64,000 nucleotides of DNA, taken from a virus. Its lineage: Duplodnaviria > Caudoviricetes. Positions 7,072-42,300 of the stretch are shown one piece after another. The translations under genes and the position numbers were made by a program. Where the stretch lies: the IMG/VR virus record IMGVR_UViG_3300017912_001009, positions 25,816 to 89,815 of that record; one strand, 5' to 3'. The notes below the pieces were generated by a model. The model was not told the DNA's origin. It was given only the letters and a program-made list of their open reading frames with translations, and searched no databases. How positions within the stretch are numbered: the first letter of the stretch is position 1; every line of letters starts with the position of its first letter.

Positions 7072-7557
7072 TCAAAACCTTCGTGCCATAGGGGGTCTCT
7101 CAATATCTTTAGAGGGCAGTCCACTTGCTGTTAACGCATTGATTTTCTCAAGTTCTCTTGCTATGTTAGCAGAGATTCTCTTTGCCTCCGACCCTTCTTT
7201 TCCTCTGAGTGCGTCTGCTAATTCACTGAGGTTCTTATAGGATGCATTCAACTCCCCGCTCATCATATCTCTTGATTCTTGCTCTGCCATCACTTTTAGC
7301 ACGTTATCAACAGCAGCCAAAATGGATTTCTTCATAGTTCCATCATTGGTCTTATCCTCCTTGCCATCGATGTTGCTCAATTGAGGCATCTTCTCCTCAG
7401 AAGGATTCTTCTTGGGTTTCTTGACTTTTATCTCCTCTCCCATGACATCCTCATCAAGTTTCAATCTTCCAAGATGTCCTGCCTCTTGTAGAATTTCTTT
7501 GGCTTTCAGTATTGCTAGTTCAACTATTTTCTCTTCTTTCGTAACTCTCTCAGGCAT
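7072..7557 (-). CDS. Hypothetical head-module protein
   Basis: ORF track; charged and helical; contains ILKA and MKKS motifs. Confidence 0.6.
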   Translation of the reverse strand: MPERVTKEEKIVELAILKAKEILQEAGHLGRLKLDEDVMGEEIKVKKPKKNPSEEKMPQLSNIDGKEDKTNDGTMKKSILAAVDNVLKVMAEQESRDMMSGELNASYKNLSELADALRGKEGSEAKRISANIARELEKINALTASGLPSKDIERPPMARRF

Positions 7558-7562
7558 TCATC

Positions 7563-7787
7563 TCACCCCATTTTCTCCGTCATCTTGCGAATCTCATCCC
7601 AAGACATTTGACCACCATCAGGGACTTGTGTATTGCCCATTGCTGGTGTTGGAGTCTCACGAACAACGAAACCTGACTTCATCAGTATGTTGTCCTTGTT
7701 GTATACTGCTTGTTCCAAGGCGTTGACCTTGTTCACAAGTTCTTTCATTAATAGTAACATTTCATCTTTTTCTTCTTTTTTGCTCAT
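7563..7787 (-). CDS. Small coiled-coil protein ending in scaffold-like motif MSWDEIRKMTEKMG
   Basis: C-terminus resembles the protease-scaffold C-terminus MSWGDIHNLARKVN. Confidence 0.6.
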   Translation of the reverse strand: MSKKEEKDEMLLLMKELVNKVNALEQAVYNKDNILMKSGFVVRETPTPAMGNTQVPDGGQMSWDEIRKMTEKMG

Positions 7788-8260
7788 ACTTTTCCTTCTC
7801 CTTTTAATTTGAATACAAGTAAACCATCGTCTGCGAATATTGCTGCGTAGCCCATACCACCATATAGTTCCCTTGCCATTTCTTGTGCCTTCTTTTCTGT
7901 CATTTTCAAGTCAGTAAGTTTGACATCTGCATAATCCTCTTTCTTCTTACCTGCTTCTCTTATGATTGGGTCTATCTTTTCTCTGAATAGGTCAACGTAC
8001 TCATCCCTCGATAAATCATCATTAGCGTTATCCTTGAACTCTGACTCTCTAGGATTCCTTATTGGAGGTGCTTTCCTAATTGGTGCATCTAGGTATATTT
8101 TACTCATCTCCCTAGATTTCTTATTTCTAGCCCTAATCTGTGCTAGTAAGTCTGCCTCTTTATCCTCAGTCCTCTTAGCCGCTTCTTCGTCTTGTCCGGT
8201 AGAGGCTGTCGTTGTGACTCTTGCCATCTCATCTGACTTCAATGTATCAAACCAACTCAT
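7784..8260 (-). CDS. Tagged hypothetical protein (MSWFDTLK)
   Basis: ATG 8260 behind AGGTGA RBS. Confidence 0.65.
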   Translation of the reverse strand: MSWFDTLKSDEMARVTTTASTGQDEEAAKRTEDKEADLLAQIRARNKKSREMSKIYLDAPIRKAPPIRNPRESEFKDNANDDLSRDEYVDLFREKIDPIIREAGKKKEDYADVKLTDLKMTEKKAQEMARELYGGMGYAAIFADDGLLVFKLKGEGKV

Positions 8261-8265
8261 TTCAA

Positions 8266-8604
8266 TCACCTTGGTCTATTGCCTATTTTACCGCCTAGAA
8301 TTGTTTTGCCTTTGACTTTATTTAACAAAAGAGAAACAATACCTAATTTATCAGCCAACTCGTCTATCTTTTGTGTTTTCATATCACTAAGGGTATCATA
8401 TAATTCGTCTAATGATTCATCTTGACTTGCTGTAGATAAAATTCGTAGGGGTTTCATAGCAAGTGCAAGTTCATCTCTAAGATTAATCATCGCGCTTTCT
8501 CTTCTATCGTCATCTTGAAACTCCATTTGTAATCTAGTTTCTTCATCACTTGCGCTTTGAGGGATATACCCCTCTCCGTATTTCACTATATCTTCCCAAC
8601 TCAT
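8266..8604 (-). CDS. Tagged hypothetical protein (MSWEDIVK)
   Basis: ORF track; AGGTGA RBS. Confidence 0.65.
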   Translation of the reverse strand: MSWEDIVKYGEGYIPQSASDEETRLQMEFQDDDRRESAMINLRDELALAMKPLRILSTASQDESLDELYDTLSDMKTQKIDELADKLGIVSLLLNKVKGKTILGGKIGNRPR

Positions 8605-32715: not shown

Positions 32716-33870
32716 GTGAAAATGGATATACCAAGAGAAGCAATAGAATTGACAATGGAAAGAGAAGACTACGTTACAGCGAAGAGAGAACTAGGAAATG
32801 GTAGGTGGGATAGGAAACTGAGGGAGAACATGGTTGCTCTTTCAGTTGCTGATAACTACGATGAAGCAAAGCATGAGTGGATTGCAACAGGGGAAGTTTG
32901 GTGGCAAGGGATTGGGACTCCAAGACCTGATTGGGCATTGGACCATCCTAACAAGTGCTTGTGTGAGCATCACATAGTTTACCACTTTGAGATTCACAAT
33001 ACCGAGACTGATGTTAGAGAGTGTGTTGGTTCAGACCACATCAACTCGTACATGATTCTCAGGGCTATTGTTGAAGAGACAGGCATGAGTGAAGATGCGA
33101 TTACTGAAGACATGATTCAAGAATGGATTGATGTTAGGGTAGCCGCTCTAATCAAGGATGCTTGGTGGAGACATAATGGTGAAGACTTTGAGAAGGCATT
33201 CAACGAGGTTAAGGAACTTGATTTGAGAATTAACGTTCGTAGAACTGGCAAGAAGGTGTATGACCAATCTCTAGGGATTGCGGTTGATGAGACCAAGATT
33301 CGCAAGAAAGGTAGAGGCACTCCCGGCACAAGAGAGTACGAGATGGCTTCTATCGTTTGGAGATGGAATCATCCTGATAACCCGAAGGCTCAGATTAACA
33401 CAAGGGGATATCCCAACGACAAACTGCTGACAGACTTGGATATCTTTCACATATTGATAGACAGACACAAGGCTACTGTCGCAGCAGAGGATGAAGCGAT
33501 GGAGTCTCAGAAGTTGAAGAACGAAGAGTATCGAAAGCAGATTTCAATCAGGAACAGTGTCCTTCGTGAGAAGAAGGAACATGAGTTCCGTGAGTCCTGT
33601 GAGTATTTCGACATTCCAGTATTCTCCTCTGACATGGGTATCAATCAATGGGAGAAGAGGTTCTTGACTGACATGGAAAGCAGAGTAATCAGGCGGAGAG
33701 AACTGTCACCACGACAAGTTTCTAAATTGAAGACCATAATCAGTCGCTACAATGATAAGCCAACTGAACGTCAGGTGAATTACCTGCGCTCATTGGGCTA
33801 CGAAGGTAATACTGAGGGGTTGACGAAGGGAGAGGTCTCTAAGTTGATTGATGAACAAAAGGAGGTATGA
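32716..33870 (+). CDS. Hypothetical protein with metal-binding CLCEH..VGSDH motif and small C-terminal helical domain
   Basis: CLCEHHIVYHFEIHN..CVGSDHI; PTERQVNYLRSLG..LTKGEVSKLID. Confidence 0.6.
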   Translation: MKMDIPREAIELTMEREDYVTAKRELGNGRWDRKLRENMVALSVADNYDEAKHEWIATGEVWWQGIGTPRPDWALDHPNKCLCEHHIVYHFEIHNTETDVRECVGSDHINSYMILRAIVEETGMSEDAITEDMIQEWIDVRVAALIKDAWWRHNGEDFEKAFNEVKELDLRINVRRTGKKVYDQSLGIAVDETKIRKKGRGTPGTREYEMASIVWRWNHPDNPKAQINTRGYPNDKLLTDLDIFHILIDRHKATVAAEDEAMESQKLKNEEYRKQISIRNSVLREKKEHEFRESCEYFDIPVFSSDMGINQWEKRFLTDMESRVIRRRELSPRQVSKLKTIISRYNDKPTERQVNYLRSLGYEGNTEGLTKGEVSKLIDEQKEV

Positions 33871-34070
33871 AAATGACAAAGAAAAGTGAAAAGAAAGAAA
33901 CGAAAGAAGAAACGCCTGTGGTTGATGAGAAGGATGCAAGAATTGCAGACCTCACCACTCAACTACAACAGGTGATGCAGGTAGCAAACAACCATATTGC
34001 TCTCTGCAAAGAATATGAAAAGACAATCGCTATTCTGTCCGGTAGAATCCGGGCTTTGAATGGTGATTAA
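33867..34070 (+). CDS. Small coiled-coil protein
   Basis: ORF track. Confidence 0.55.
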   Translation: MKMTKKSEKKETKEETPVVDEKDARIADLTTQLQQVMQVANNHIALCKEYEKTIAILSGRIRALNGD

Positions 34071-34096: not shown

Positions 34097-34303
34097 ATGA
34101 AAATGAAATTGATAATACAGAATGAAACAGGCCATACAACAATGGAAGTGAACGCATCAGGCGTTATCGAGCAGATAAACGACCACCCTACACATTGGGT
34201 GATTGTTGATGACGTTATGGTGATGAGGGAGAACATCCCTGATGTTGATTGGGAAACCGTCAATGAAGTTAGGCTGATGGAAGAAGTCGTAGGCGGCTAC
34301 TGA
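34097..34303 (+). CDS. Ubiquitin-like (ThiS/MoaD/SAMP beta-grasp) protein ending VVGG-Y
   Basis: 68 aa; beta-beta-alpha-beta-beta pattern (KLIIQN, HTTMEV, helix, WVIVDDVMV, EVRLM) and diglycine one residue before the stop. Confidence 0.7.
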   Translation: MKMKLIIQNETGHTTMEVNASGVIEQINDHPTHWVIVDDVMVMRENIPDVDWETVNEVRLMEEVVGGY

Positions 34304-34387
34304 ATCGGTCTTAGATAGTCTTAGCAGTAGTTAGATTGACTGCCGAGTGGGTGCAATGCCCATCTTAAACTCAAAGGAGATGAACAT

Positions 34388-36289
34388 ATGGAAATACAAC
34401 AAGAAATACTATCAGATATCACTGTGCATATGAAGTATGCAAAGTGGAAAGAAGCAGAACAAAGAAAAGAAACATGGGAGGAGATTTGCAACAGAAACAG
34501 GCAAATGCACCTCGACACAATAGCAAGGAGAGAACTTACACAATCAAGCAATGCTCTTGGGAAGGATGTACTCATTGAGAGAATCAATGATGTCTATGAC
34601 AACTACGTTATCCCGAAGAAGGTACTACCTTCAATGAGGTCAATGCAGTTTGCAGGAAAGCCAATTGAACTATCGCCTAATCGTGTTTACAATTGTGCTT
34701 ACATGCCTATTGACCACTATCTGTCGTTCTCAGAAGCAATGTTCCTATTGCTAGGAGGCACAGGTGTTGGCTACTCGGTTCAAAGACATCATGTAGAGAA
34801 GTTGCCTGAGATTAGACTACCTAACCCAAAGAGAACTTACAGACATCTAGTTGCTGATTCCATCGAAGGATGGGCAGATGCAGTCAAGGTTTTGTTTGAG
34901 TCTTACATTGGTAAGAGAGCAACAACAGTCAGATTCGACTATTCAGACATCAGACCAAAAGGTGCGTTGTTGAAGACTAGTGGTGGTAAAGCACCCGGCC
35001 CTCAACCACTTAGAGAATGTCTAGTTAAGGTGGAAGGTATTCTTGCTAACAAAGACAATGGAGACAAACTAACTACACTGGAAGCACACGATATTGTTTG
35101 TTATATTGCAGACGCAGTATTAGCAGGTGGCATTCGTAGAGCAGCACTAATTAGTTTGTTCAGTGCTGATGATGATGACATGATAACATCGAAGTCAGGA
35201 CACTTTTGGGAGAAGAATCCACAGAGAGCAAGAGCAAACAACTCAGTGGTTCTACTACGTCACAGAATCAAGAGGGACTTCTTCAACAATCTATGGAAGA
35301 GAGTTCAAGACTCAGGTTCAGGAGAACCGGGTTTCTACTTCACGAATGACAAGGATTGGGGAACTAACCCTTGTTGTGAGATAGCACTTAGACCATATCA
35401 GTTCTGTAACTTGACAGAAGTGAATGTGTCTGATGTTAGGACACAGAAGGAACTCAATGCTAGAGTTAACGCTGCAACCTTCTTAGGAACACTACAAGCA
35501 TCCTATACAGACTTCCACTATCTAAGGGAAGTTTGGAAGAAGACATCTGAGAAAGATGCCCTGTTAGGGGTTTCAATGACAGGCATTGCAAGTGGAGCAG
35601 TATTGAATCTAGACTTAGAGGCGGCTGCTGAGAAAGCAAGAAGCGTGAATGGAGTGATTTCAAATGCTCTAGGTATTAACACAGCAGCGAGAATTACTTG
35701 TGTCAAACCTGCTGGAACTACTAGTCTAGTTATGGGAACATCATCAGGCATTCATGCTTGGTGGTCTCAATACTACATCAGGAGAATCAGAGTGTTGAAG
35801 ACTGAATCAATCTACAACTATCTGATAACCAAGTTCCCTGATTTGGTTGAGGATGACTATCACAATCCTAATCAGGCCATTATCTCAATTCCTCAGAAGA
35901 CTCCCGATGGAACTTCAATAACGAGAGAGGAAACAGCATTAGAGATGTTGGAGCGAGTTAAGAGAGTATCAGTTGATTGGGTTGTAACAGGACACAATAG
36001 AGGAGTTAACACTCACAACGTTTCTGCAACAGTCAACATCCGTGAGGATGAATGGGATGATGTGAGAAACTGGATGTGGAAGAACAGAGACTTCTACAAT
36101 GGTCTTTCTGTTCTACCGTTCGATGGTGGTGTCTACAAGCAAGCACCACACGAACCGATAAGCAAGAAGCAATACGAAACTATGCTCAAACTTCTGACTG
36201 AAATTGATTTGACTGAAGTTATTGAGTTAGAGGACAACACCGACTTGCAAGGAGAACTTGCTTGTGCAGGTGGAGTCTGTGAAATATGA
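34388..36289 (+). CDS. nrdJ: Class II (B12-dependent, monomeric RTPR-type) ribonucleotide reductase
   Basis: PSMRSMQFAG, YNCAY, TNPCCEI, CNLTEVN, VKPAGT, C-terminal CAGGVC. Confidence 0.93.
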   Translation: MEIQQEILSDITVHMKYAKWKEAEQRKETWEEICNRNRQMHLDTIARRELTQSSNALGKDVLIERINDVYDNYVIPKKVLPSMRSMQFAGKPIELSPNRVYNCAYMPIDHYLSFSEAMFLLLGGTGVGYSVQRHHVEKLPEIRLPNPKRTYRHLVADSIEGWADAVKVLFESYIGKRATTVRFDYSDIRPKGALLKTSGGKAPGPQPLRECLVKVEGILANKDNGDKLTTLEAHDIVCYIADAVLAGGIRRAALISLFSADDDDMITSKSGHFWEKNPQRARANNSVVLLRHRIKRDFFNNLWKRVQDSGSGEPGFYFTNDKDWGTNPCCEIALRPYQFCNLTEVNVSDVRTQKELNARVNAATFLGTLQASYTDFHYLREVWKKTSEKDALLGVSMTGIASGAVLNLDLEAAAEKARSVNGVISNALGINTAARITCVKPAGTTSLVMGTSSGIHAWWSQYYIRRIRVLKTESIYNYLITKFPDLVEDDYHNPNQAIISIPQKTPDGTSITREETALEMLERVKRVSVDWVVTGHNRGVNTHNVSATVNIREDEWDDVRNWMWKNRDFYNGLSVLPFDGGVYKQAPHEPISKKQYETMLKLLTEIDLTEVIELEDNTDLQGELACAGGVCEI

Positions 36290-36567
36290 ATAGAGAACAA
36301 ATTCTAGCAATAGAAGATGAGGTCATCGATGGGATGACTAACGCTGGTGCTAAAGAGAGTCTCTCTGCTCTATACAAGAGGACTAGGAAAGATGGGAGAA
36401 GATATCCATCAACCCTAGTTCTCAACAGAATCAGATACTATATGCGTTTAGGATATAGTAATTTAACAACAGAGGAATTGGAATCCCTGTATGATAAGAA
36501 AATGTATTATGAAAGAAATGGTGATATAAATGAAAATAAAGATGATTTTACCCACAGTAAGAAGTGA
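36286..36567 (+). CDS. Hypothetical protein
   Basis: ORF track. Confidence 0.5.
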   Translation: MNREQILAIEDEVIDGMTNAGAKESLSALYKRTRKDGRRYPSTLVLNRIRYYMRLGYSNLTTEELESLYDKKMYYERNGDINENKDDFTHSKK

Positions 36568-37753
36568 CAGAGAAAGAGTAACACAGAGTAGTTCATTCTT
36601 GTGTAAAACAAATAGAGTGTTTAGGGGCTTCAATAGAAGCCGAAATCAATTCGGTGAGATTGAGATGAACATGGGCTATTCTTCAAACAGTAAGAGAAAG
36701 TTCCATGAGAATGTGTATTGGAACACGTTCGCACAGAACATGTATTCTGTATTTGTTCAGAATCATAGTGTCAGTAAGTCAAACGAGATGACTTGGATTA
36801 CCTTCCGATATTACAACGGTGATTCAAGCATTATGCTGAGAAAGGATGGTAATTCTCTATACATGAATGGTGTCAAGAAGAATCAAGTCGATGTTGCTAT
36901 GGCTCTTGCCAAGATAATAGGATTCGGTGCTATCAATCGATGTGCTGATGCTATGGATAACTACATCGATAGAAATGTCACATACTCGTCAAACATACTC
37001 TACTCATTGGAGAACAGAACACCGTATTGGTTGTTTGAAGATGGAAGAAAGGTGCAAGTCAAGATAAACACATCTCTGATAGGTAGAGATGAAGTTGCCT
37101 TTGAGATATCTGAGAACATTTGGGGTTCTCTTTCTCTCGATGAGGCAAACACCTTCATTGACTGTTACAGAAACAAGGCAAAGAGGTCAAAGAAGTGGGC
37201 AAATATCAGTCCATCCAATCTTTGGTTCAATATGTTTGGCACACATGCTACTGATTCACAGGAGCAGTTGATGAAAGCATGGTTGATGCAGAACAGAACA
37301 GATTGGATTGTTGAGGAAAGAGCATTCAAACTATTGAAGGAAATGGATGAGAAAGACCAGTATACTCTTGTGGACACAAGGAAGTTGTTGAAACATGCAG
37401 ATGGTGGTATTGAATTGAATGGACTATCAACACAACATAACTTTGCCATGCATGTTAGAGGAGAGTTGGGAGACTGGTTAGTTTACCCCAACAACAGAAC
37501 AACTGGTTCACAGAGATGCAGTGTTGTCTTCTTCAAGAAGATGAATTCGATTGACGGCCCTTTCTGTATTGATGATGTCAATGGAAAGAACGTCATGGGA
37601 GACCAAATTGCAACAAGAGCAACATTGGTATTCAATGACAGGGTGGGAACAAAGATAGTGAGAACATTGCACTCTGTCAGCCCAACTGGTTTCAGAGTAC
37701 CAAATAACATCTTGAGAAACAGTAGATTCACGGAGGAGATAACATGGAAGTAG
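36530..37753 (+). CDS. Hypothetical protein; C-terminal domain possibly E2/UBC-like
   Basis: YP...SVVFFKK..DGPFCIDD..helix loosely parallels UBC YP..PKVRF.TK..G.ICLD; weak resemblance. Confidence 0.5.
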   Translation: MKIKMILPTVRSDRERVTQSSSFLCKTNRVFRGFNRSRNQFGEIEMNMGYSSNSKRKFHENVYWNTFAQNMYSVFVQNHSVSKSNEMTWITFRYYNGDSSIMLRKDGNSLYMNGVKKNQVDVAMALAKIIGFGAINRCADAMDNYIDRNVTYSSNILYSLENRTPYWLFEDGRKVQVKINTSLIGRDEVAFEISENIWGSLSLDEANTFIDCYRNKAKRSKKWANISPSNLWFNMFGTHATDSQEQLMKAWLMQNRTDWIVEERAFKLLKEMDEKDQYTLVDTRKLLKHADGGIELNGLSTQHNFAMHVRGELGDWLVYPNNRTTGSQRCSVVFFKKMNSIDGPFCIDDVNGKNVMGDQIATRATLVFNDRVGTKIVRTLHSVSPTGFRVPNNILRNSRFTEEITWK

Positions 37754-38631
37754 CGATGAAATGTCCTGAATGCTCTGAGTATGACTGGTCATTCGATGAC
37801 TCCTTGGGAGAGAACGTTTGTGACCACTGTGGGTTAGTTCATGTTGTAAGACCGTTTGAGGAGACAACTAGAAAGGCAGACACTTACGAAGTGTCATCAC
37901 ATCTAGGCTCTATGATTATCGAGAGGAACTCAAACTACAAAACAGGACAACTGCATAGAATGAAGAAACATCACATGTTTGCAGCGATGTTATCTGAAAC
38001 TGATAGGAGAACGATTACTCTATGTAACATGATTCTATCTAATTACAGTGTAAGCAAATCAATTAGAAACAATGTAGGTGTGTATCTAAGGTCATTAAAT
38101 GCAGAGCATGTATTCAGAGGATGTAGTGTAGAACACAGGGCTGCTGCACTCTCCTTCTATATTCTAAAAGAGAGTAACATACCAATGAATATCAGAACGC
38201 ATAGTAAGTATTCTATGGTTGACAGTAAGTACATCTCTCGTTGGGCAAAGAGAATAGCAAGACACTTCAGAAAGTCATATGTGTTTTCTCAAGAGAATGT
38301 GATGGGTAATGCAATAGGTATCATAGACAGATTAGGAGTTACCCCTGAAGGTTATCGACCTGATGCTCTTACCATGATTCAGTATCTTGAGACCTTCTAT
38401 AAGGAGCGTGACATTCGTTTCTCCCCTAACAAGATGGTCGCTGCTCTTTGGCTAGTATCAAGGATGGGGAAATACAACATAACACAGAAGGATTTAGTGA
38501 AGTCTTCAGGCAACACTTCGTCTGAAATTGGAATAAGAGAGCAGATAAGAGAAATGCAACGAACGTTTAACTTGACGAGGAATGAGTTGTATTCGTTGTC
38601 TGTGCATGATTTCGTATCAGGAGCGTATTAA
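37744..38631 (+). CDS. tfb: Viral TFIIB/TFB homologue
   Basis: N-terminal CPEC..GENVCDHCGLV zinc ribbon, B-reader-like segment, two cyclin-like repeats (RGCSVEHRAAALSF; FSPNKMVAALWLV..ITQKDLV). Confidence 0.8.
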   Translation: MEVAMKCPECSEYDWSFDDSLGENVCDHCGLVHVVRPFEETTRKADTYEVSSHLGSMIIERNSNYKTGQLHRMKKHHMFAAMLSETDRRTITLCNMILSNYSVSKSIRNNVGVYLRSLNAEHVFRGCSVEHRAAALSFYILKESNIPMNIRTHSKYSMVDSKYISRWAKRIARHFRKSYVFSQENVMGNAIGIIDRLGVTPEGYRPDALTMIQYLETFYKERDIRFSPNKMVAALWLVSRMGKYNITQKDLVKSSGNTSSEIGIREQIREMQRTFNLTRNELYSLSVHDFVSGAY

Positions 38632-38632
38632 G

Positions 38633-38875
38633 ATGGAAGATTTGATTGAAACACTAAAGAGAATGCAATACCACTTCAGTAAGTTTATTGAAGAGTATGA
38701 AAGTCTACCACAGTTGAAGAATGTTGTCAGAAGAACTGTGTTAGAAGACGCAATCTCCGTTGTCGGAGCGACAATGGATGGAATAACAAACGAGATAGTT
38801 GATGCTTGGCATCTCTATCAACAACAACAAATAGACAACAATGTAATAGATATAGGTGATAAGAATGATGAATAG
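38633..38875 (+). CDS. Hypothetical protein
   Basis: ORF track; start moved to MEDLIE. Confidence 0.5.
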   Translation: MEDLIETLKRMQYHFSKFIEEYESLPQLKNVVRRTVLEDAISVVGATMDGITNEIVDAWHLYQQQQIDNNVIDIGDKNDE

Positions 38876-39461
38876 GAAAGTAATGATAATTGGTGCAGGA
38901 GGAATAGGTAGTTTTCTAACTCAGTTCCTCCAAAGACTAGGATATAGATTAACAGTGTATGATGATGACTCAGTTGAGAGGAAGAACTTGGGTTATCAGA
39001 ACTTCACTAATGGTGACATTGGTGAGAACAAGGCAATGACCCTATCTGATAGAGTATGGGACACTGCTTTTCGTGGAACAGTCGCTGATGAACCCTACAA
39101 GGTTCTAACTGCAAAGCAATTACAGGGTTATGACTTGGTGGTGTGCTGTGCAGACAACCTTGCTGTGAGGCGTTTGTTGTATCAGCAGGGGTTTGGTGCA
39201 GATGCTAAGTTGAAGTGGCTAGATTTGCGAGCGCAGGGGCGAAATGCCCTATTGCTATCCTATCTCTCTGACCCCTTGAAGGGTAACAGACTAGCAGAGG
39301 GAGCAGAGGGTTCTTTCTCATGCCAAGCAACATCTTGGGATGGGAGTGCAAGAGACATAGACTGTATGAATATTGTAATTGCTGCAACAGCAGTTCAGTG
39401 GATACAGAAGTGGTTCAACGACAACGATGATGTCAAAGACATGATGGTGTTGAACATATGA
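38865..39461 (+). CDS. E1/ThiF-family adenylating enzyme
   Basis: IIGAGGIG, YDDDSVERKNLGYQ, GENKA, VCCADNLAVRR, WLDLR, SFSC (candidate catalytic Cys). Confidence 0.88.
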   Translation: MMNRKVMIIGAGGIGSFLTQFLQRLGYRLTVYDDDSVERKNLGYQNFTNGDIGENKAMTLSDRVWDTAFRGTVADEPYKVLTAKQLQGYDLVVCCADNLAVRRLLYQQGFGADAKLKWLDLRAQGRNALLLSYLSDPLKGNRLAEGAEGSFSCQATSWDGSARDIDCMNIVIAATAVQWIQKWFNDNDDVKDMMVLNI

Positions 39462-39621
39462 AAGAATGTGATTGTGAAGAGTGTTCCTGTCATTATCCGC
39501 TTGAGACCTTTCTAGGTCAAGCGAGTAGTGCAGGAGTACCTCTTCCACTCAAAGAAGCAAGAATAATTTGCGGTAGATGTAAACAGAATCTATCGTGTAG
39601 TGAATGTAGAGGTGAAGATGA

Positions 39622-39852
39622 ATGAGAGCGAGTTCAAAAATACACGTTGAATATGAAGTATTGAAATACATAATGGATAAGATAGACTTAACAGAATTAG
39701 AAGCAAGAATGTGTCCTACTGGAGACAAGGTAGCCGAGAAGAGATTCAAGGATGGTGCTGATACAGTATCTAACTTGGTTAACAATATGATACTCAGAAG
39801 ACTGCATAGGTTGCCTAACACACATCCTGCATACAAGGAGAAGGCAGAATGA
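39622..39852 (+). CDS. Hypothetical protein
   Basis: ORF track. Confidence 0.5.
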   Translation: MRASSKIHVEYEVLKYIMDKIDLTELEARMCPTGDKVAEKRFKDGADTVSNLVNNMILRRLHRLPNTHPAYKEKAE

Positions 39853-40148
39853 TTCACTTCCGAATCCTAGACAAGACTCTCTGTGGTGCTGCCTACAAAG
39901 AGCCTAGTGAGAAAGCAGCAAAAGATGGTAGGTTATGTGATGACTGCATCCAAGTGATGTGGAAGGAACAATACAGAAGGAATGTTCTCAGAGTAAAGCA
40001 GCCTACACAACCAAAGGTCAGTTTAACTGAGAAATGGGAAAAGGCTTGGGAAGAAACTAACAAGAAAGAGGTTGTAGTCGAGCAACCTAGATTGTCTCCA
40101 CCGAGACCAATCAAATCACTTCGACATTACATGAAGGTGAAAGCATGA
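39849..40148 (+). CDS. Hypothetical protein with Cys/His cluster
   Basis: H..TLCG..LCDDC. Confidence 0.5.
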   Translation: MIHFRILDKTLCGAAYKEPSEKAAKDGRLCDDCIQVMWKEQYRRNVLRVKQPTQPKVSLTEKWEKAWEETNKKEVVVEQPRLSPPRPIKSLRHYMKVKA

Positions 40149-40384
40149 CAGAAGATGCAAATATAGAAGACATAAGCGAAGAAGACATAGGACACATATT
40201 GTCAATAATAGCGACAGATGGATATTACAAACAGGCAGAGATAGTCAAGGTGACTTGCCCTGTTTGTGGTGAGCAGTTCTTAGGAACGAAAAGACATGCT
40301 GGTGGGTTCATAGCAGGACACAGAGCATATCATGAGTTTGAGAACGAGCAGGATATGAGAGTAGAACAAATGGGAGGAATATGA
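40145..40384 (+). CDS. C2H2-type zinc-finger protein
   Basis: CPVCGEQF..GH..YH. Confidence 0.55.
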   Translation: MTEDANIEDISEEDIGHILSIIATDGYYKQAEIVKVTCPVCGEQFLGTKRHAGGFIAGHRAYHEFENEQDMRVEQMGGI

Positions 40385-40944
40385 AAATGAAAACAAATGA
40401 AACAGAATATGAAGATGGTAAGATAGAAGGCTTAGAGGTAAAGGATGAGAATTGGATTGAGGATATTAAAACTGTATTTCAATCGATACAGTTTGTTTAT
40501 CCATTTCCCGACCCACAAACAGAGGCATTCTTTACGGTTATTTGGAATAAATCACTTAATGCATTCGATTCACCTAGAGAGGTACAGGTGATTGTTGATG
40601 CTAAGGATGACCTCTATTGCAGTGTAGGTACATTTGGGTTTGTAAGTTTCAAGAACCAAGATGGACAACTGGATGGTATGAAGTTACCATTGAAGTGTTG
40701 GATACACACACATCCGTTTGGTCGAGCATTCTTCAGTGGCACTGATTGGAAAACAATCAAGTCATGGAAAGGAATGATGCAGAGTGCAACAGTTCTTGGA
40801 GATAACCAGTTCATCTCCTATGATTGTAATAGCGAGATTGCGAAGCAAGTTCAGTATGGGTTGTATCAACAACACCCTGAGACAGACGATAAGCCTGAGT
40901 GGGTAAAAGCAGCAGAAAGTGTATTGGATGGTGAGGAAGAATGA
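40381..40944 (+). CDS. JAB/MPN+ (JAMM) metalloprotease
   Basis: Complete JAMM motif: upstream Glu (PREV) and HTH-PFGRAFF-S-GT-D (HxH-x7-S-x2-D). Confidence 0.88.
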   Translation: MKMKTNETEYEDGKIEGLEVKDENWIEDIKTVFQSIQFVYPFPDPQTEAFFTVIWNKSLNAFDSPREVQVIVDAKDDLYCSVGTFGFVSFKNQDGQLDGMKLPLKCWIHTHPFGRAFFSGTDWKTIKSWKGMMQSATVLGDNQFISYDCNSEIAKQVQYGLYQQHPETDDKPEWVKAAESVLDGEEE

Positions 40945-41105
40945 GTGACACAGACTGGATAATAATATCACAAGATGAAATAGATTACATTCTTAGTTGT
41001 ATGAGATATTTACAACCTCATACAGTAAATAGAAGAAAATTAGCAGAGAAAATTATGAGCCTACCTGCTGGTAGAAAGAGGCTACAAGTATGGGGGTATG
41101 ATTGA

Positions 41106-41465
41106 ATGATTGACACAGAAAAGTTATGGAAGACGTATTGCGGAATAGCAGATGCTCATGGGTTAGAGTCCTTCATGGAATGTGAAGCAATGGGTTCTGC
41201 TCCTGTTACTCTTACGATGAGAGCGAGTCTGAACAGGCAGAGACATGCTATGGTGTATTGGGTTGAACTACCTGATGATAAAGCAGAGCAGATGCATGAA
41301 GCAATCAGACAAGCACAAGAAGATGGAGATTGGCATGAACCTCTTCTTCTTTTGAAGAACCCTGACTTCACAGAGACTGTATCCTTTGAGGATTCAATGA
41401 AGAGAAGTTGGGACATGCTTCCCGATGGTAGACTAGACCCTTATTGGGAAGGAGAAGAAGAGTAG
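41106..41465 (+). CDS. Hypothetical protein
   Basis: ORF track. Confidence 0.55.
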   Translation: MIDTEKLWKTYCGIADAHGLESFMECEAMGSAPVTLTMRASLNRQRHAMVYWVELPDDKAEQMHEAIRQAQEDGDWHEPLLLLKNPDFTETVSFEDSMKRSWDMLPDGRLDPYWEGEEE

Positions 41466-41502
41466 TATTTGTTGAAGTATAAATACTCTCATAATTATAA
41501 TA

Positions 41503-42300
41503 ATGGTGATTAAAATGAAATATTGGGCATTTGAGATAAAAGAAGGAAAAGACATACTGATTAATTGTAAGGACATCGAGAGTGTTTGTCTCTTAGGTGA
41601 ACACACGAAATATGACATTTACTCAGGTCTAGCCATAGAAGGAACATCACAGGATAACGTATCTTTGTTGAAGACTGAGGTTATTCAATCTAAGAATACT
41701 AAGAAAAATGTTAGCAAGAAAAAGAGAACCAAGAAAAATGCAGTTCCTGTTAGACCGGAAATCAGAGCAGGAGGAAGAACAAGACCGGTTCATGTTCCTG
41801 TCTCTGCCGAACAGAGGTTTGCCAACAAACTCGCTAGGGAGACTGCAACCGGGAGAACAGTAGAAGTGGTTGATAAAGACTTAGGAGGAGTCAAGTTTAC
41901 TGTTATCAGACATGTAGATGGTTCGCTGTTTCTCTTACAAGAAGAAGGCACGAAAAACGAGTATTGGGCAAAGTGGAAGATGAAGGATGACCTGTGGATA
42001 ATATGGAATGACAACTATGGAGAAGAGACTGATGACCATCACAATGCTGGTAATGAAAATGCTGAAGGCGCACATCGTTCATCGTGTTGCTATACAGTGA
42101 ACAGAAGAAGACTGGCAAACGTACCTTACTGTCTAGCATGTAAGGATGACAGTCCCACACAGAGAACTAACAGGAGAATTGCAAATGGTGGCCCTGAAGC
42201 CAATCTAATCTTCGATGAGAATGGTCAGTTAACAACGGCATGGACACAGAAAGCAAAGGAGATATACCTCAACAGATTAAGAGAAGAGGAGGAAAAATGA
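41503..42300 (+). CDS. Hypothetical protein with C-terminal Cys cluster
   Basis: ORF track; SCC..YCLAC. Confidence 0.55.
   Translation: MVIKMKYWAFEIKEGKDILINCKDIESVCLLGEHTKYDIYSGLAIEGTSQDNVSLLKTEVIQSKNTKKNVSKKKRTKKNAVPVRPEIRAGGRTRPVHVPVSAEQRFANKLARETATGRTVEVVDKDLGGVKFTVIRHVDGSLFLLQEEGTKNEYWAKWKMKDDLWIIWNDNYGEETDDHHNAGNENAEGAHRSSCCYTVNRRRLANVPYCLACKDDSPTQRTNRRIANGGPEANLIFDENGQLTTAWTQKAKEIYLNRLREEEEK

What the first reader, a model, noticed from the sequence alone, without database searches (positions are those of the whole stretch)
34097..40944. Virus-encoded ubiquitin/SAMP-like conjugation system: Ubl(GG-Y) + E1 + JAMM, with possible E2
Seen within 7 kb on one strand: a 68-aa beta-grasp-like protein ending VVGG-Y-stop (GGC GGC, not RBS-derived); a ThiF/E1 enzyme with intact ATP motifs and a candidate catalytic Cys (SFSC); and a JAB protease with a complete JAMM motif. 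Known: JAMM proteases trim C-terminal extensions to expose GG and remove conjugates; E1 adenylates the GG terminus; haloarchaeal SAMP-UbaA-JAMM, CBASS Cap2/Cap3 and Bil are cellular systems of this type. The one-residue cap makes the Ubl dependent on the JAB, tying the genes functionally. No ThiG/MoaE-type sulfur acceptor is visible, which favours protein conjugation. Inference: the virus runs its own tagging pathway to redirect host proteolysis, modify viral proteins (RNR and TFB are interleaved) or counter Ubl-based defence. I do not recall a characterised case in an archaeal virus.
Basis: partly seen in the sequence, partly recalled or inferred. Interest (0 to 1): 0.92.

Follow-up and report, generated by a model that had tools for sequence, protein, structure and literature searches.

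The report
Virus-encoded ubiquitin-like tagging module
This ocean virus of archaea (a magrovirus) carries its own small ubiquitin-like protein, the enzyme that activates it and a protease that trims or removes it; the same three-gene kit occurs as a tight operon in unrelated bacteriophages, so it is a real, widespread and so far undescribed viral system whose targets are unknown.

Summary
The window lies in a roughly 90 kb magrovirus-like genome. It encodes three proteins.

- **Ubl:** 68 aa. It folds confidently as a beta-grasp (pLDDT 91).
- **E1:** a short ThiF-type enzyme with intact ATP and Mg motifs and an invariant S-C-Q cysteine.
- **Protease:** a complete, invariant JAMM motif.

All 53 related loci with enough flanking sequence carry all three genes.

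Decisive new evidence comes from distant relatives of the E1. These include real bacteriophages with sigma-70 and PolA. There the genes form a contiguous operon, Ubl(GG-stop)-JAMM-E1, and that Ubl is homologous to the magrovirus Ubl (HHalign 98.3%, E 1.8e-14). The three genes are therefore one functional module, shared by viruses of two host domains.

No E2 was found. The viral genome has no sulfur-acceptor enzyme, rhodanese, PAPS reductase or CysM. I favour E2-independent, SAMP-like protein conjugation (about 0.5) over a sulfur-carrier role (about 0.27). Sequence alone cannot decide between them.

Prior literature notes only E1-like genes in an Asgard archaeal virus and in Methanoperedens elements, not a self-contained triad. 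The neighbouring zinc-finger gene, which also ends in GG, is probably an RBS artefact. This scan had not noted the system before.

The parts
34097..34303 (+). Ubl: 68-aa beta-grasp protein ending VVGG-Y. It belongs to a new sequence family with signature GH[TD], [HK]W-x-[FY]-x-D and a terminal [VI]GG.
   Evidence: AF2 pLDDT 91 with topology bb-a-bb-a-b. Top Foldseek hits are all ubiquitin, ISG15 or SUMO, probability 0.97-0.99. VIA-align Z 5.0-5.6 to MoaD, Fubi, ISG15; lower to ThiS, CysO, SAMP1, TtuB. VGG invariant in 33 homologs. GG plus a 0-2 residue cap in 67 distinct sequences. Synonymous Gly codons. Homologous to the compact-operon Ubls (HHalign 98.3%, E 1.8e-14). No Pfam ThiS/MoaD hit. 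No sequence match to the PDB.
38856..39461 (+). Short E1-like adenylyltransferase, 201 aa. It has GAGGIGS, D36/D38, K59, D100-N101, R105, D123-x-R125 and an invariant S155-C156-Q157. It has no CxxC zinc pairs, no rhodanese domain and no E2 domain.
   Evidence: PF00899 at 66.4 bits. Profile against the PDB: Cap2 E1 domain 2.6e-10, then Uba1, MccB, Uba4, MoeB, UBA5. NCBIfam PRTRC_ThiF 58.8 bits and UbaA 44.1 bits, both below cutoff. PADLOC hits only the E1 part of Cap2 models. Invariant residues. 831 clusters at E<=1e-10 in the profile search; the listed full-length matches are mostly 180-210 aa.
40381..40944 (+). JAMM/MPN+ metalloprotease, 187 aa, with E48, H109-x-H111, S119 and D122.
   Evidence: Motif invariant in 14 orthologs. 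Profile hits AMSH-LP 7.4e-5, STAMBP, Sst2 and Rpn11-like. Below Pfam's cutoff as a single sequence. E1 and Ubl were present in every JAB-anchored locus with room upstream. In distant magrovirus lineages JAB directly follows E1.
40145..40384 (+). orf79: an accessory small zinc-finger-like protein (CxxC ... H ... HxxxH) whose stop overlaps the JAB start. It ends GG plus 1 residue. Whether it belongs to the system is uncertain.
   Evidence: 118 of 120 homologs end GG+1. The GG is mostly GGA GGA, 4-8 nt before the next ATG, so it is confounded with a Shine-Dalgarno sequence. AF2 pLDDT 76 gives helix, beta-hairpin(CxxC), long helix; it is not a beta-grasp. No significant PDB match. Absent from a sub-lineage that keeps the trio.
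32716..33870 (+). Context: orf384, a conserved unknown found upstream of the Ubl in most of the loci examined, separated from it in this window by the small orf67 (33867-34070). Not shown to belong to the system.
   Evidence: Synteny. Invariant CLCxH..H..N..GSDHI and MASIVWRWNxP; the HPN is not conserved. No PDB or Pfam hit.
36530..38631 (+). Context: orf407 (an unknown with a single invariant Cys in GPxCID) and a TFB-like transcription factor. Both always lie between the Ubl and E1 genes. Not shown to belong to the system.
   Evidence: Synteny in 53/53 loci. TFIIB zinc ribbon E 9.3e-6. orf407 has no Pfam, PDB or Atlas hit.

Best explanation
The three genes form one self-contained ubiquitin-like modification module with no E2, expressed with the virus's replication and transcription-takeover genes. 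Proposed steps follow. (1) The JAMM protease removes the 0-2 residue cap (Tyr in this virus) to expose Gly-Gly (inferred). (2) The short E1 binds ATP-Mg and adenylates the Ubl C-terminus; the motifs are shown, the activity is inferred. It probably then takes the Ubl onto its invariant S-C-Q cysteine as a thioester (inferred from position only). (3) As in archaeal SAMPylation, the activated Ubl is passed without an E2 to lysines of viral or host proteins (inferred; targets unknown). (4) The same JAMM protease reverses the mark (inferred). Phage relatives keep the JAMM gene although their Ubl has no cap, which points to deconjugation or adduct cleavage, and not precursor trimming, as its core job.
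For: Each part passes its own test. The Ubl is a beta-grasp with an invariant GG selected at the protein level. The E1 has intact nucleotide and Mg motifs and a family-wide invariant SCQ. The JAMM motif is complete. The functional link rests on two results. First, 53/53 TFB-anchored loci with room carry all three genes, even at 23-27% TFB identity. Second, in independent lineages the three genes are contiguous, as Ubl(GG-stop)-JAMM-E1 in 17 loci; Prok-JAB scores above its 25-bit cutoff in all four tested, 25.3 to 48.7 bits. In those 28 loci, 24 of the 25 small ORFs ending in GG and all 17 JAMM-motif ORFs lie beside the E1. The Ubls of the two lineages are homologous (HHalign 98.3%, E 1.8e-14). 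Against a sulfur role: the 93%-complete genome has no TtuA/NcsA PP-loop, rhodanese, MoaE, ThiG, PAPS reductase, CysM-type PLP enzyme or Pfam ThiS, and the E1 has no rhodanese domain. The module sits beside the virus's own initiation factor, TFB here and sigma-70 in phage L235, and beside the polymerase genes. That placement fits a role in takeover or replication.
Against: No conjugate has been observed, and nothing in the sequence separates a modifier from a sulfur carrier. VIA-align ranks MoaD first (Z 5.6), tied with Fubi and ISG15. The host could supply a sulfurtransferase and an acceptor enzyme. The Arg of the canonical NLxRQ motif is Tyr throughout the family, so ATP handling may differ. 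Alignments to solved E1s stop before the SCQ motif, so equating it with the catalytic-loop Cys of MoeB, ThiF or UbaA rests on position alone. The E2 searches were uninformative because their controls were silent, and two conserved unknowns (orf384, orf407) could hide an unrecognised E2 or E3. The JAMM families of the two lineages align only over the motif. Co-occurrence within magroviruses is confounded by general synteny.
Confidence: 0.5

Rival explanations
1. Sulfur-carrier system. The E1 adenylates the Ubl, a host persulfide donor converts it to a thiocarboxylate, and that sulfur goes into a thio-modified tRNA, cofactor, cysteine-type metabolite or nucleotide during infection. The JAMM protease trims the cap or hydrolyses a Ubl-product adduct, as in CysO/Mec+ or QbsE/QbsD.
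For: The Ubl is the size of ThiS or MoaD and structurally as close to MoaD, ThiS, CysO and TtuB as to ubiquitin. The E1's named sequence relatives include ThiF, MoeB and Uba4. Cellular ThiS/MoaD-JAB-E1 clusters linked to sulfur assimilation are documented (Iyer et al. 2006, PMC1779556). Capped GG carriers processed by JAMM are known (own knowledge: QbsE/QbsD). The module recurs near a class II ribonucleotide reductase in magroviruses, in phages L235-L244 and in crAss001. That hints at nucleotide or thiol chemistry.
Against: The viral genome has no acceptor enzyme, rhodanese, PAPS reductase or CysM. The E1 lacks a rhodanese domain and CxxC pairs. The Ubl is not a Pfam ThiS/MoaD member. The RNR is absent from distant magrovirus lineages that keep the trio, so that linkage is not obligatory.
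Confidence: 0.27
2. Counter-defence or hijack. The viral E1 and JAMM act mainly on host Ubl pathways (SAMP/UbaA in archaea; Bil, CBASS Cap2/Cap3 or Bub in bacteria), for example by stripping host conjugates or diverting host Ubls. The viral Ubl would then be a decoy or competitor.
For: The E1's best solved match is the Cap2 E1 domain, and PADLOC matches are to CBASS E1-E2 models. The authors of the Nidhogg virus and Methanoperedens element papers proposed that element-borne E1s use host Ubls. The module occurs in viruses of both domains.
Against: The virus always carries its own Ubl, under strong purifying selection at the GG tail, and it is operonic with E1 and JAMM in phages. That is not expected if host Ubls were the substrates. 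The E1 matches to Cap2 cover only the generic adenylation core.
Confidence: 0.1
3. The three genes are functionally unrelated neighbours that merely share a conserved viral gene block.
For: Within magroviruses the RNR, TFB, orf384 and orf407 genes co-occur just as faithfully, and 4.5 kb separates the Ubl from the E1.
Against: The contiguous Ubl-JAMM-E1 operon occurs in unrelated viruses with a homologous Ubl and E1, and the background is near zero. The three biochemical roles are complementary.
Confidence: 0.03

Closest known systems
Haloarchaeal SAMP-UbaA-HvJAMM1 (sampylation)
   Same: A small beta-grasp protein with C-terminal GG, a single MoeB/ThiF-type E1, no E2 and a JAMM isopeptidase. 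This is the best analogue for the mechanism (PMC4443979 and PMC4895103, listed).
   Different: It is cellular, not viral. The E1 here scores 44 bits against the UbaA model's cutoff of 450, is about 70 aa shorter and has no CxxC pairs. The Ubl has no sequence similarity to SAMPs. SAMPs also serve sulfur transfer; whether this Ubl does is unknown.
Sulfur-carrier triads with a JAMM protease (CysO-MoeZ-Mec+; QbsE-QbsC-QbsD) and the ThiS/MoaD-JAB-E1 clusters of Iyer et al. 2006
   Same: The same three-part architecture. QbsE has a capped GG removed by a JAMM protease (own knowledge). The cluster type is listed in PMC1779556.
   Different: Those clusters sit with CysM, sulfate-assimilation or siderophore genes. 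None of these is in the viral genome.
CBASS Cap2/Cap3 and BilABCD/Bub bacterial ubiquitination-like defence systems
   Same: An E1 adenylation core (best PDB hit Cap2), a JAMM DUB that pre-processes or removes the modifier, and a capped Ubl in Bil (PMC10557695).
   Different: Those are host defence systems with an E2 domain or protein. No E2 is seen here, the E1 is half the size, and the system is carried by the virus itself.
Lambda/T1 tail-assembly Ubl (TAPI) plus JAB-NlpC/P60 (TAPK)
   Same: A virus-encoded Ubl with a C-terminal Gly next to a JAB protease (PMC1779556).
   Different: That pair has no E1, lies in the tail module and uses fused domains. The present module lies in the replication and transcription block and includes an E1.
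E1-like genes of the Asgard virus Nidhogg and of Methanoperedens jumbo extrachromosomal elements
   Same: ThiF/E1-like genes carried by archaeal viruses or elements. The short-E1 family found here also occurs on Methanoperedens-labelled contigs.
   Different: Only the E1 was reported, and the authors proposed that it uses host Ubls. Neither paper contains the word JAB, and the passages I read describe no element-borne Ubl.
Adjacent JAB-like plus ThiF-like genes in cultured phages (crAss001 gp77/gp76; Salmonella phage Arash gp247c/gp246c)
   Same: A JAMM motif of the same ...FFSGTD type directly upstream of an E1-like gene. In crAss001 the pair lies in the replication module near a B12-dependent RNR.
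   Different: Both proteins are about twice as long. The E1s lack SCQ. No GG-tailed Ubl was seen beside them. They are annotated only as 'thiamine biosynthesis', 'metalloprotease' or 'structural' proteins.

Membership tests
ThiF/MoeB/E1 adenylyltransferase superfamily (PF00899) | Score above the curated Pfam cutoff | tested here: met
   66.4 bits against 28.1. The phage relative L235 aligns over 22-209 of 238 profile positions.
ThiF/MoeB/E1 adenylyltransferase superfamily (PF00899) | Gly-rich nucleotide loop, ribose-binding Asp, Lys, and the Asp-Asn Mg site | tested here: met
   GAGGIGS, D36/D38, K59 and D100-N101 are invariant. The Arg of NLxRQ is replaced by Tyr.
ThiF/MoeB/E1 adenylyltransferase superfamily (PF00899) | Catalytic-loop cysteine (MoeB C187, ThiF C184, UbaA C188; own knowledge) | tested here: inconclusive
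   An invariant S-C-Q lies 56 residues after the Mg-binding Asp, which is similar spacing. Alignments to solved E1s end before it, and no E1 model was made.
ThiF/MoeB/E1 adenylyltransferase superfamily (PF00899) | Two CxxC zinc-binding pairs (MoeB/ThiF/UbaA type) | tested here: not met
   The Cys residues are at 97, 98, 156 and 170 only, with no CxxC. This feature is not universal in the superfamily.
JAMM/MPN+ metalloproteases | E...HxH-x7-S-xx-D zinc and catalytic motif | tested here: met
   E48, H109, H111, S119 and D122 are invariant. The profile hits AMSH-LP at 7.4e-5.
JAMM/MPN+ metalloproteases | Score above the Pfam Prok-JAB (PF14464) cutoff | tested here: not met
   The window protein scores 17.5 against 25 bits. 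The JAMM proteins of the compact phage operons do pass, at 48.7 and 48.2 bits.
Beta-grasp ubiquitin-like modifiers and sulfur carriers | Beta-grasp fold | tested here: met
   AF2 pLDDT 91 with topology bb-a-bb-a-b. The top 15 Foldseek hits are ubiquitin-type proteins and nearly all the rest are beta-grasp domains. VIA Z 5.0-5.6 over 59-66 of 68 residues. The Z is modest, as expected for 68 aa.
Beta-grasp ubiquitin-like modifiers and sulfur carriers | Conserved C-terminal Gly-Gly on a flexible tail | tested here: met
   Invariant in 33, 67 and 15 sequences respectively. The tail has lower pLDDT.
ThiS/MoaD family (PF02597) | Sequence match to the family model | tested here: not met
   No hit at E<=0.1. 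The profiles hit no ThiS, MoaD, SAMP or ubiquitin chain in the PDB.
SAMP/UbaA-type E2-independent conjugation | Absence of an E2 and formation of isopeptide conjugates | not testable with these tools
   No E2 family was found among the neighbours. The whole-genome E2 searches had silent controls. Detecting conjugates needs biochemistry.
SAMP/UbaA-type E2-independent conjugation | E1 meets the NCBIfam UbaA equivalog cutoff | tested here: not met
   44.1 bits against 450.
CBASS Cap2/Cap3 or BilABCD | E2 domain or protein partnered with the E1 | tested here: not met
   PADLOC matches cover only the E1 portion of the E1-E2 models, about positions 300-480 of roughly 600. The E1 is 201 aa with no extra domain.
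PRTRC (ParB-related, ThiF-related cassette) | ThiF protein above the TIGR03736 cutoff, with the other PRTRC proteins present | tested here: not met
   This is the best NCBIfam hit, but at 58.8 bits against 144.75. The Ubl, the JAB and the neighbours hit no PRTRC model.
Sulfur-carrier pathway (ThiS-ThiG, MoaD-MoaE, TtuB-TtuA, CysO-CysM) | Cognate sulfur-acceptor enzyme or rhodanese encoded with the carrier | tested here: not met
   PF05690, PF02391, PF01171, PF00581, PF01507 and PF00291 are all absent from the 89.8 kb genome, with positive controls. The host could still supply them.

The most novel reading that the evidence does not exclude
A complete, E2-independent ubiquitin-like protein-conjugation system is encoded by viruses themselves. 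It is built on a previously unrecognised beta-grasp family and a minimal roughly 200-aa E1 with an S-C-Q active site. It is shared between bacteriophages and archaeal tailed viruses, and it is used during replication or transcription takeover to tag host or viral proteins. This would be the first virus-owned Ubl conjugation machinery outside eukaryotic viruses, and a mirror image of the host's Bil and CBASS Ubl defences.
Probability: 0.4. Interest if true: 0.88.

Novelty: new variant of a known kind. Interest (0 to 1): 0.72.

Why it matters
Prokaryotic ubiquitin-like conjugation has recently emerged as a host weapon against phages (Bil, CBASS Cap2/Cap3, Bub). It is also a regulatory and proteolytic tag in archaea (SAMPs). 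A self-contained Ubl-E1-JAMM kit carried by viruses would show that viruses use the same chemistry. Here it is a fixed core feature of one of the most abundant groups of ocean archaeal viruses, and it is homologous to an operon in large bacteriophages. It offers a minimal three-protein system for studying E2-less Ubl transfer. It adds a new beta-grasp sequence family and a very small E1. It also gives a concrete entry point, through target identification, into how magroviruses take over uncultured Marine Group II archaea. If the system turns out to be a sulfur carrier, it would be a new kind of viral auxiliary metabolic module.

Tried and rejected
1. **orf79 (40145-40384) as a second GG-terminal modifier.** 118 of 120 homologs end GG+1. 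However, the GG is mostly GGAGGA just upstream of the next start codon. The fold is a bba zinc finger with only about 4 tail residues. It is missing from lineages that keep the trio. I consider it probably not a modifier. The weak local similarity to the Rad18 ubiquitin-binding zinc finger (E about 1.5) is only a lead.

2. **orf384 as the 'possible E2'.** This was prompted by its DHPNKC stretch. The HPN is not conserved, and there is no PDB or Pfam hit.

3. **orf407 as an E2-like protein.** It has a single invariant Cys in GPxCID. This remains open.

4. **All-or-none co-occurrence test within the clade.** It was not possible, because no TFB-anchored relative lacks the system.

6. **Mapping the SCQ Cys onto solved E1s by sequence.** The alignments stop too early.

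7. **A cultured phage with the compact operon.** None is in GenBank phages. Only longer JAB+E1 pairs were found, in crAss001 and Arash.

8. **Literature.** No paper links magroviruses to ThiF, JAB or ubiquitin.

Full report
**What the window is.** The window is bases 25816-89815 of an 89.8 kb IMG/VR virus record that CheckV rates 93% complete. The minus-strand arm encodes an HK97-type capsid protein, a prohead protease, a portal and a terminase. The plus-strand arm encodes two ATP-dependent ligases, RFC, a split family-B DNA polymerase, a class II ribonucleotide reductase and a TFB-like factor. This matches the magroviruses of Marine Group II archaea. RNR was noted as a marker of magrovirus group B (PMC5434244). 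Earlier notes of this scan reached the same identification.

The Ubl ORF (34097-34303) ends VVGG-Y-stop with codons GGC GGC TAC TGA. It has no Pfam, NCBIfam or PDB sequence relative. The first search returned 39 homologs, and in the 33 aligned the VGG is invariant. AlphaFold2 on this alignment gives pLDDT 91 and the beta-grasp order of elements. All top Foldseek hits are ubiquitin, ISG15 or SUMO, at probability 0.97-0.99 and E from 4e-3. The Foldseek-independent search ranks MoaD, Fubi, ISG15, ThiS, CysO, SAMP1 and TtuB at Z 4.3-5.6. The fold is therefore a beta-grasp, but the fold alone cannot tell a modifier from a sulfur carrier.

Across all related loci, 67 distinct Ubl sequences end in GG followed by 0 (3 sequences), 1 (36) or 2 (28) residues of almost any kind. 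In one lineage the tail reads GGGNQ, so counted from its first two glycines the cap is 3 residues. The two Gly codons vary synonymously, and no gene starts just downstream, so the GG is selected in the protein and is not an embedded ribosome-binding site.

The E1 (38856-39461) is a clear ThiF-family protein (66.4 bits). Its invariant residues are the Gly-rich loop, D36/D38, K59, D100-N101, R105 and S155-C156-Q157. Its best solved relatives are the E1 domain of CBASS Cap2, then Uba1, MccB, Uba4, MoeB and UBA5.

The JAB protein (40381-40944) falls below Pfam's cutoff as a single sequence. It nevertheless carries a complete and invariant JAMM motif, and its profile hits AMSH-type and Rpn11-like deubiquitinases.

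**Are the three genes one system?** Within magroviruses the answer from co-occurrence alone is weak. All 21 E1-anchored loci, all JAB-anchored loci with room, and 53 of 53 TFB-anchored loci carry the trio. This holds even where the TFB is only 23-27% identical. But orf384, orf407 and the TFB co-occur equally well, so this mostly shows that the trio is a fixed core feature of the clade. In the most divergent lineages the RNR is absent and JAB directly follows E1.

The decisive evidence came from outside the clade. An exhaustive profile search shows that the E1 belongs to a large family: 831 clusters score at E<=1e-10, and the listed full-length matches are mostly 180-210 aa. Members at 27-38% identity keep the same invariant residues, including S-C-Q. 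These distant members lie on other viral contigs and on MAG contigs labelled as various archaea and some bacteria.

In 17 of 28 such loci the E1 is immediately preceded by a JAMM protease of 83-196 aa and by a protein of 69-88 aa that ends in GG-stop, or GGN in one locus. In L235 these lie at 7308-7565, 7567-7995 and 7995-8588. The JAMM proteins tested pass Pfam's Prok-JAB cutoff, at up to 48.7 bits. The small proteins are homologous to the magrovirus Ubl over their full length, with the GG in register (HHalign 98.3%, E 1.8e-14). In those 28 loci, 24 of the 25 small ORFs ending in GG and all 17 ORFs with a JAMM-type motif are the ones beside the E1.

L235 is a bacteriophage: its neighbours are RecU, a class II RNR, a sigma-70 factor and a family-A polymerase. 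A homologous Ubl-JAMM-E1 module therefore sits next to the virus's own transcription initiation factor and replication genes in viruses of both bacteria and archaea.

**What it most likely does.** I favour an E2-independent conjugation cycle of the SAMP type: JAMM matures the capped precursor, E1 adenylates the GG and probably forms a thioester on C156, the Ubl is transferred to lysines, and JAMM reverses the mark. The reasons are these.

- The virus encodes its own modifier, activator and remover.
- Phage operons keep the JAMM although their Ubl has no cap, so trimming cannot be its only job.
- The 93%-complete genome has no TtuA/NcsA, rhodanese, MoaE, ThiG, PAPS reductase, CysM-type enzyme or recognisable ThiS.

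The main rival, a sulfur carrier, remains quite possible (about 0.27). The fold is as close to MoaD as to ubiquitin. Cellular ThiS/MoaD-JAB-E1 clusters exist. The host could supply donor and acceptor enzymes. The module recurs near RNR genes.

The equivalence of C156 with the catalytic-loop Cys of MoeB, ThiF or UbaA is inferred from spacing only, because alignments to solved E1s stop before it. No E2 was found, but the genome-wide E2 searches had silent controls. The two conserved unknowns could not be folded.

**Side findings.** orf79, which overlaps the JAB start, also ends GG plus one residue in 118 of 120 homologs. Three results argue that this GG largely reflects the downstream Shine-Dalgarno sequence: its codons, its zinc-finger-like fold and its absence from some lineages. 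Cultured phages crAss001 and Salmonella phage Arash carry a different, longer JAB-like plus ThiF-like gene pair with the same FFSGTD-type JAMM motif.

**Novelty.** Magrovirus papers do not mention ThiF, JAB or ubiquitin. E1-like genes alone were reported in the Helarchaeota virus Nidhogg and in Methanoperedens jumbo elements. In both cases the authors proposed that the E1 acts on host Ubls. Iyer et al. 2006 described the cellular and mobile-element clusters and the lambda tail Ubl+JAB pair. I found no description of a virus-encoded Ubl+E1+JAMM triad within the searchable library, which excludes most subscription-journal papers. I class it as a new variant of a known kind of system.

Noticed in passing
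window 40145-40384: orf79 is a very conserved 79-aa protein with an invariant CxxC, GTKRHAGGF and GH...HE. It is predicted as a bba zinc finger, and 118 of 120 homologs end GG+1. The GG overlaps the RBS of the next gene. There are weak local matches to the Rad18 ubiquitin-binding zinc finger (E about 1.5), so it could be a Ubl reader or adaptor. Untested.
   Followed up: partly
window 32716-33870: orf384 is a conserved unknown found upstream of the Ubl gene in most of the loci examined, separated from it here by the small orf67. It has an invariant CLCxH..H..N..GSDHI (a possible metal or His-Me site) and MASIVWRWNxP. It has no Pfam or PDB relative.
   Followed up: partly
window 36530-37753: orf407 is a conserved unknown that always lies between the Ubl (or RNR) and the TFB. 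It has a single invariant Cys in a GPxCID context that faintly recalls an E2 active site. It has no Pfam, PDB or Atlas hit and was not folded.
   Followed up: partly
L235:2648-11706 compared with window 34097-54442: There is parallel synteny across host domains. In the phage the order is RNR ... Ubl-JAMM-E1 - sigma-70 - PolA. In the magrovirus it is Ubl - RNR - orf407 - TFB - E1 - JAB ... ligase/RFC/PolB. In both, the module sits beside the virus's own transcription initiation factor.
   Followed up: partly
L232:3259-5663 (crAss001 gp77/gp76); L356:2236-4514 (Salmonella phage Arash gp247c/gp246c): Cultured phages carry an adjacent pair: a roughly 410-aa protein with a JAMM motif (HSHN..(A/T)FFSGTD) and a 346-383-aa ThiF-like protein with an extra domain. 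They are annotated only as metalloprotease, thiamine biosynthesis or structural proteins. No GG-tailed Ubl was seen nearby.
   Followed up: partly
L324, L325, L326: Contigs with the full magrovirus gene set (Ubl, RNR, orf407, TFB, E1, JAB, orf79) are deposited in MAGs labelled Altibacter and Maricaulis, which are bacteria. This is probably viral contigs mis-binned into bacterial genomes.
   Followed up: no
L315:8600-8839, L319:9792-10142, L320:8586-8831: On contigs labelled Aenigmatarchaeota, Micrarchaeota and Planctomycetota, the short SCQ E1 is followed (directly in L315 and L320, about 1.2 kb downstream in L319) by a different 79-116-aa protein ending ...K-x-K-G-G. No JAMM was detected. This may be another Ubl subtype.
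   Followed up: no
window 40900-42300 and related loci: Many genes in this virus end in Glu-rich tails (GEEE, EEE), because the GAGGAG ribosome-binding site of the next, overlapping gene is read in frame. This is a caution for any reading of C-terminal motifs here.
   Followed up: partly
L184:8581-8739, L191:8504-8662, L204:8702-8863 and others: A conserved 52-56-aa ORF (starting around MKEKDPEY and ending YMM) lies directly upstream of orf407 in the divergent magrovirus lineages. Its function is unknown.
   Followed up: no
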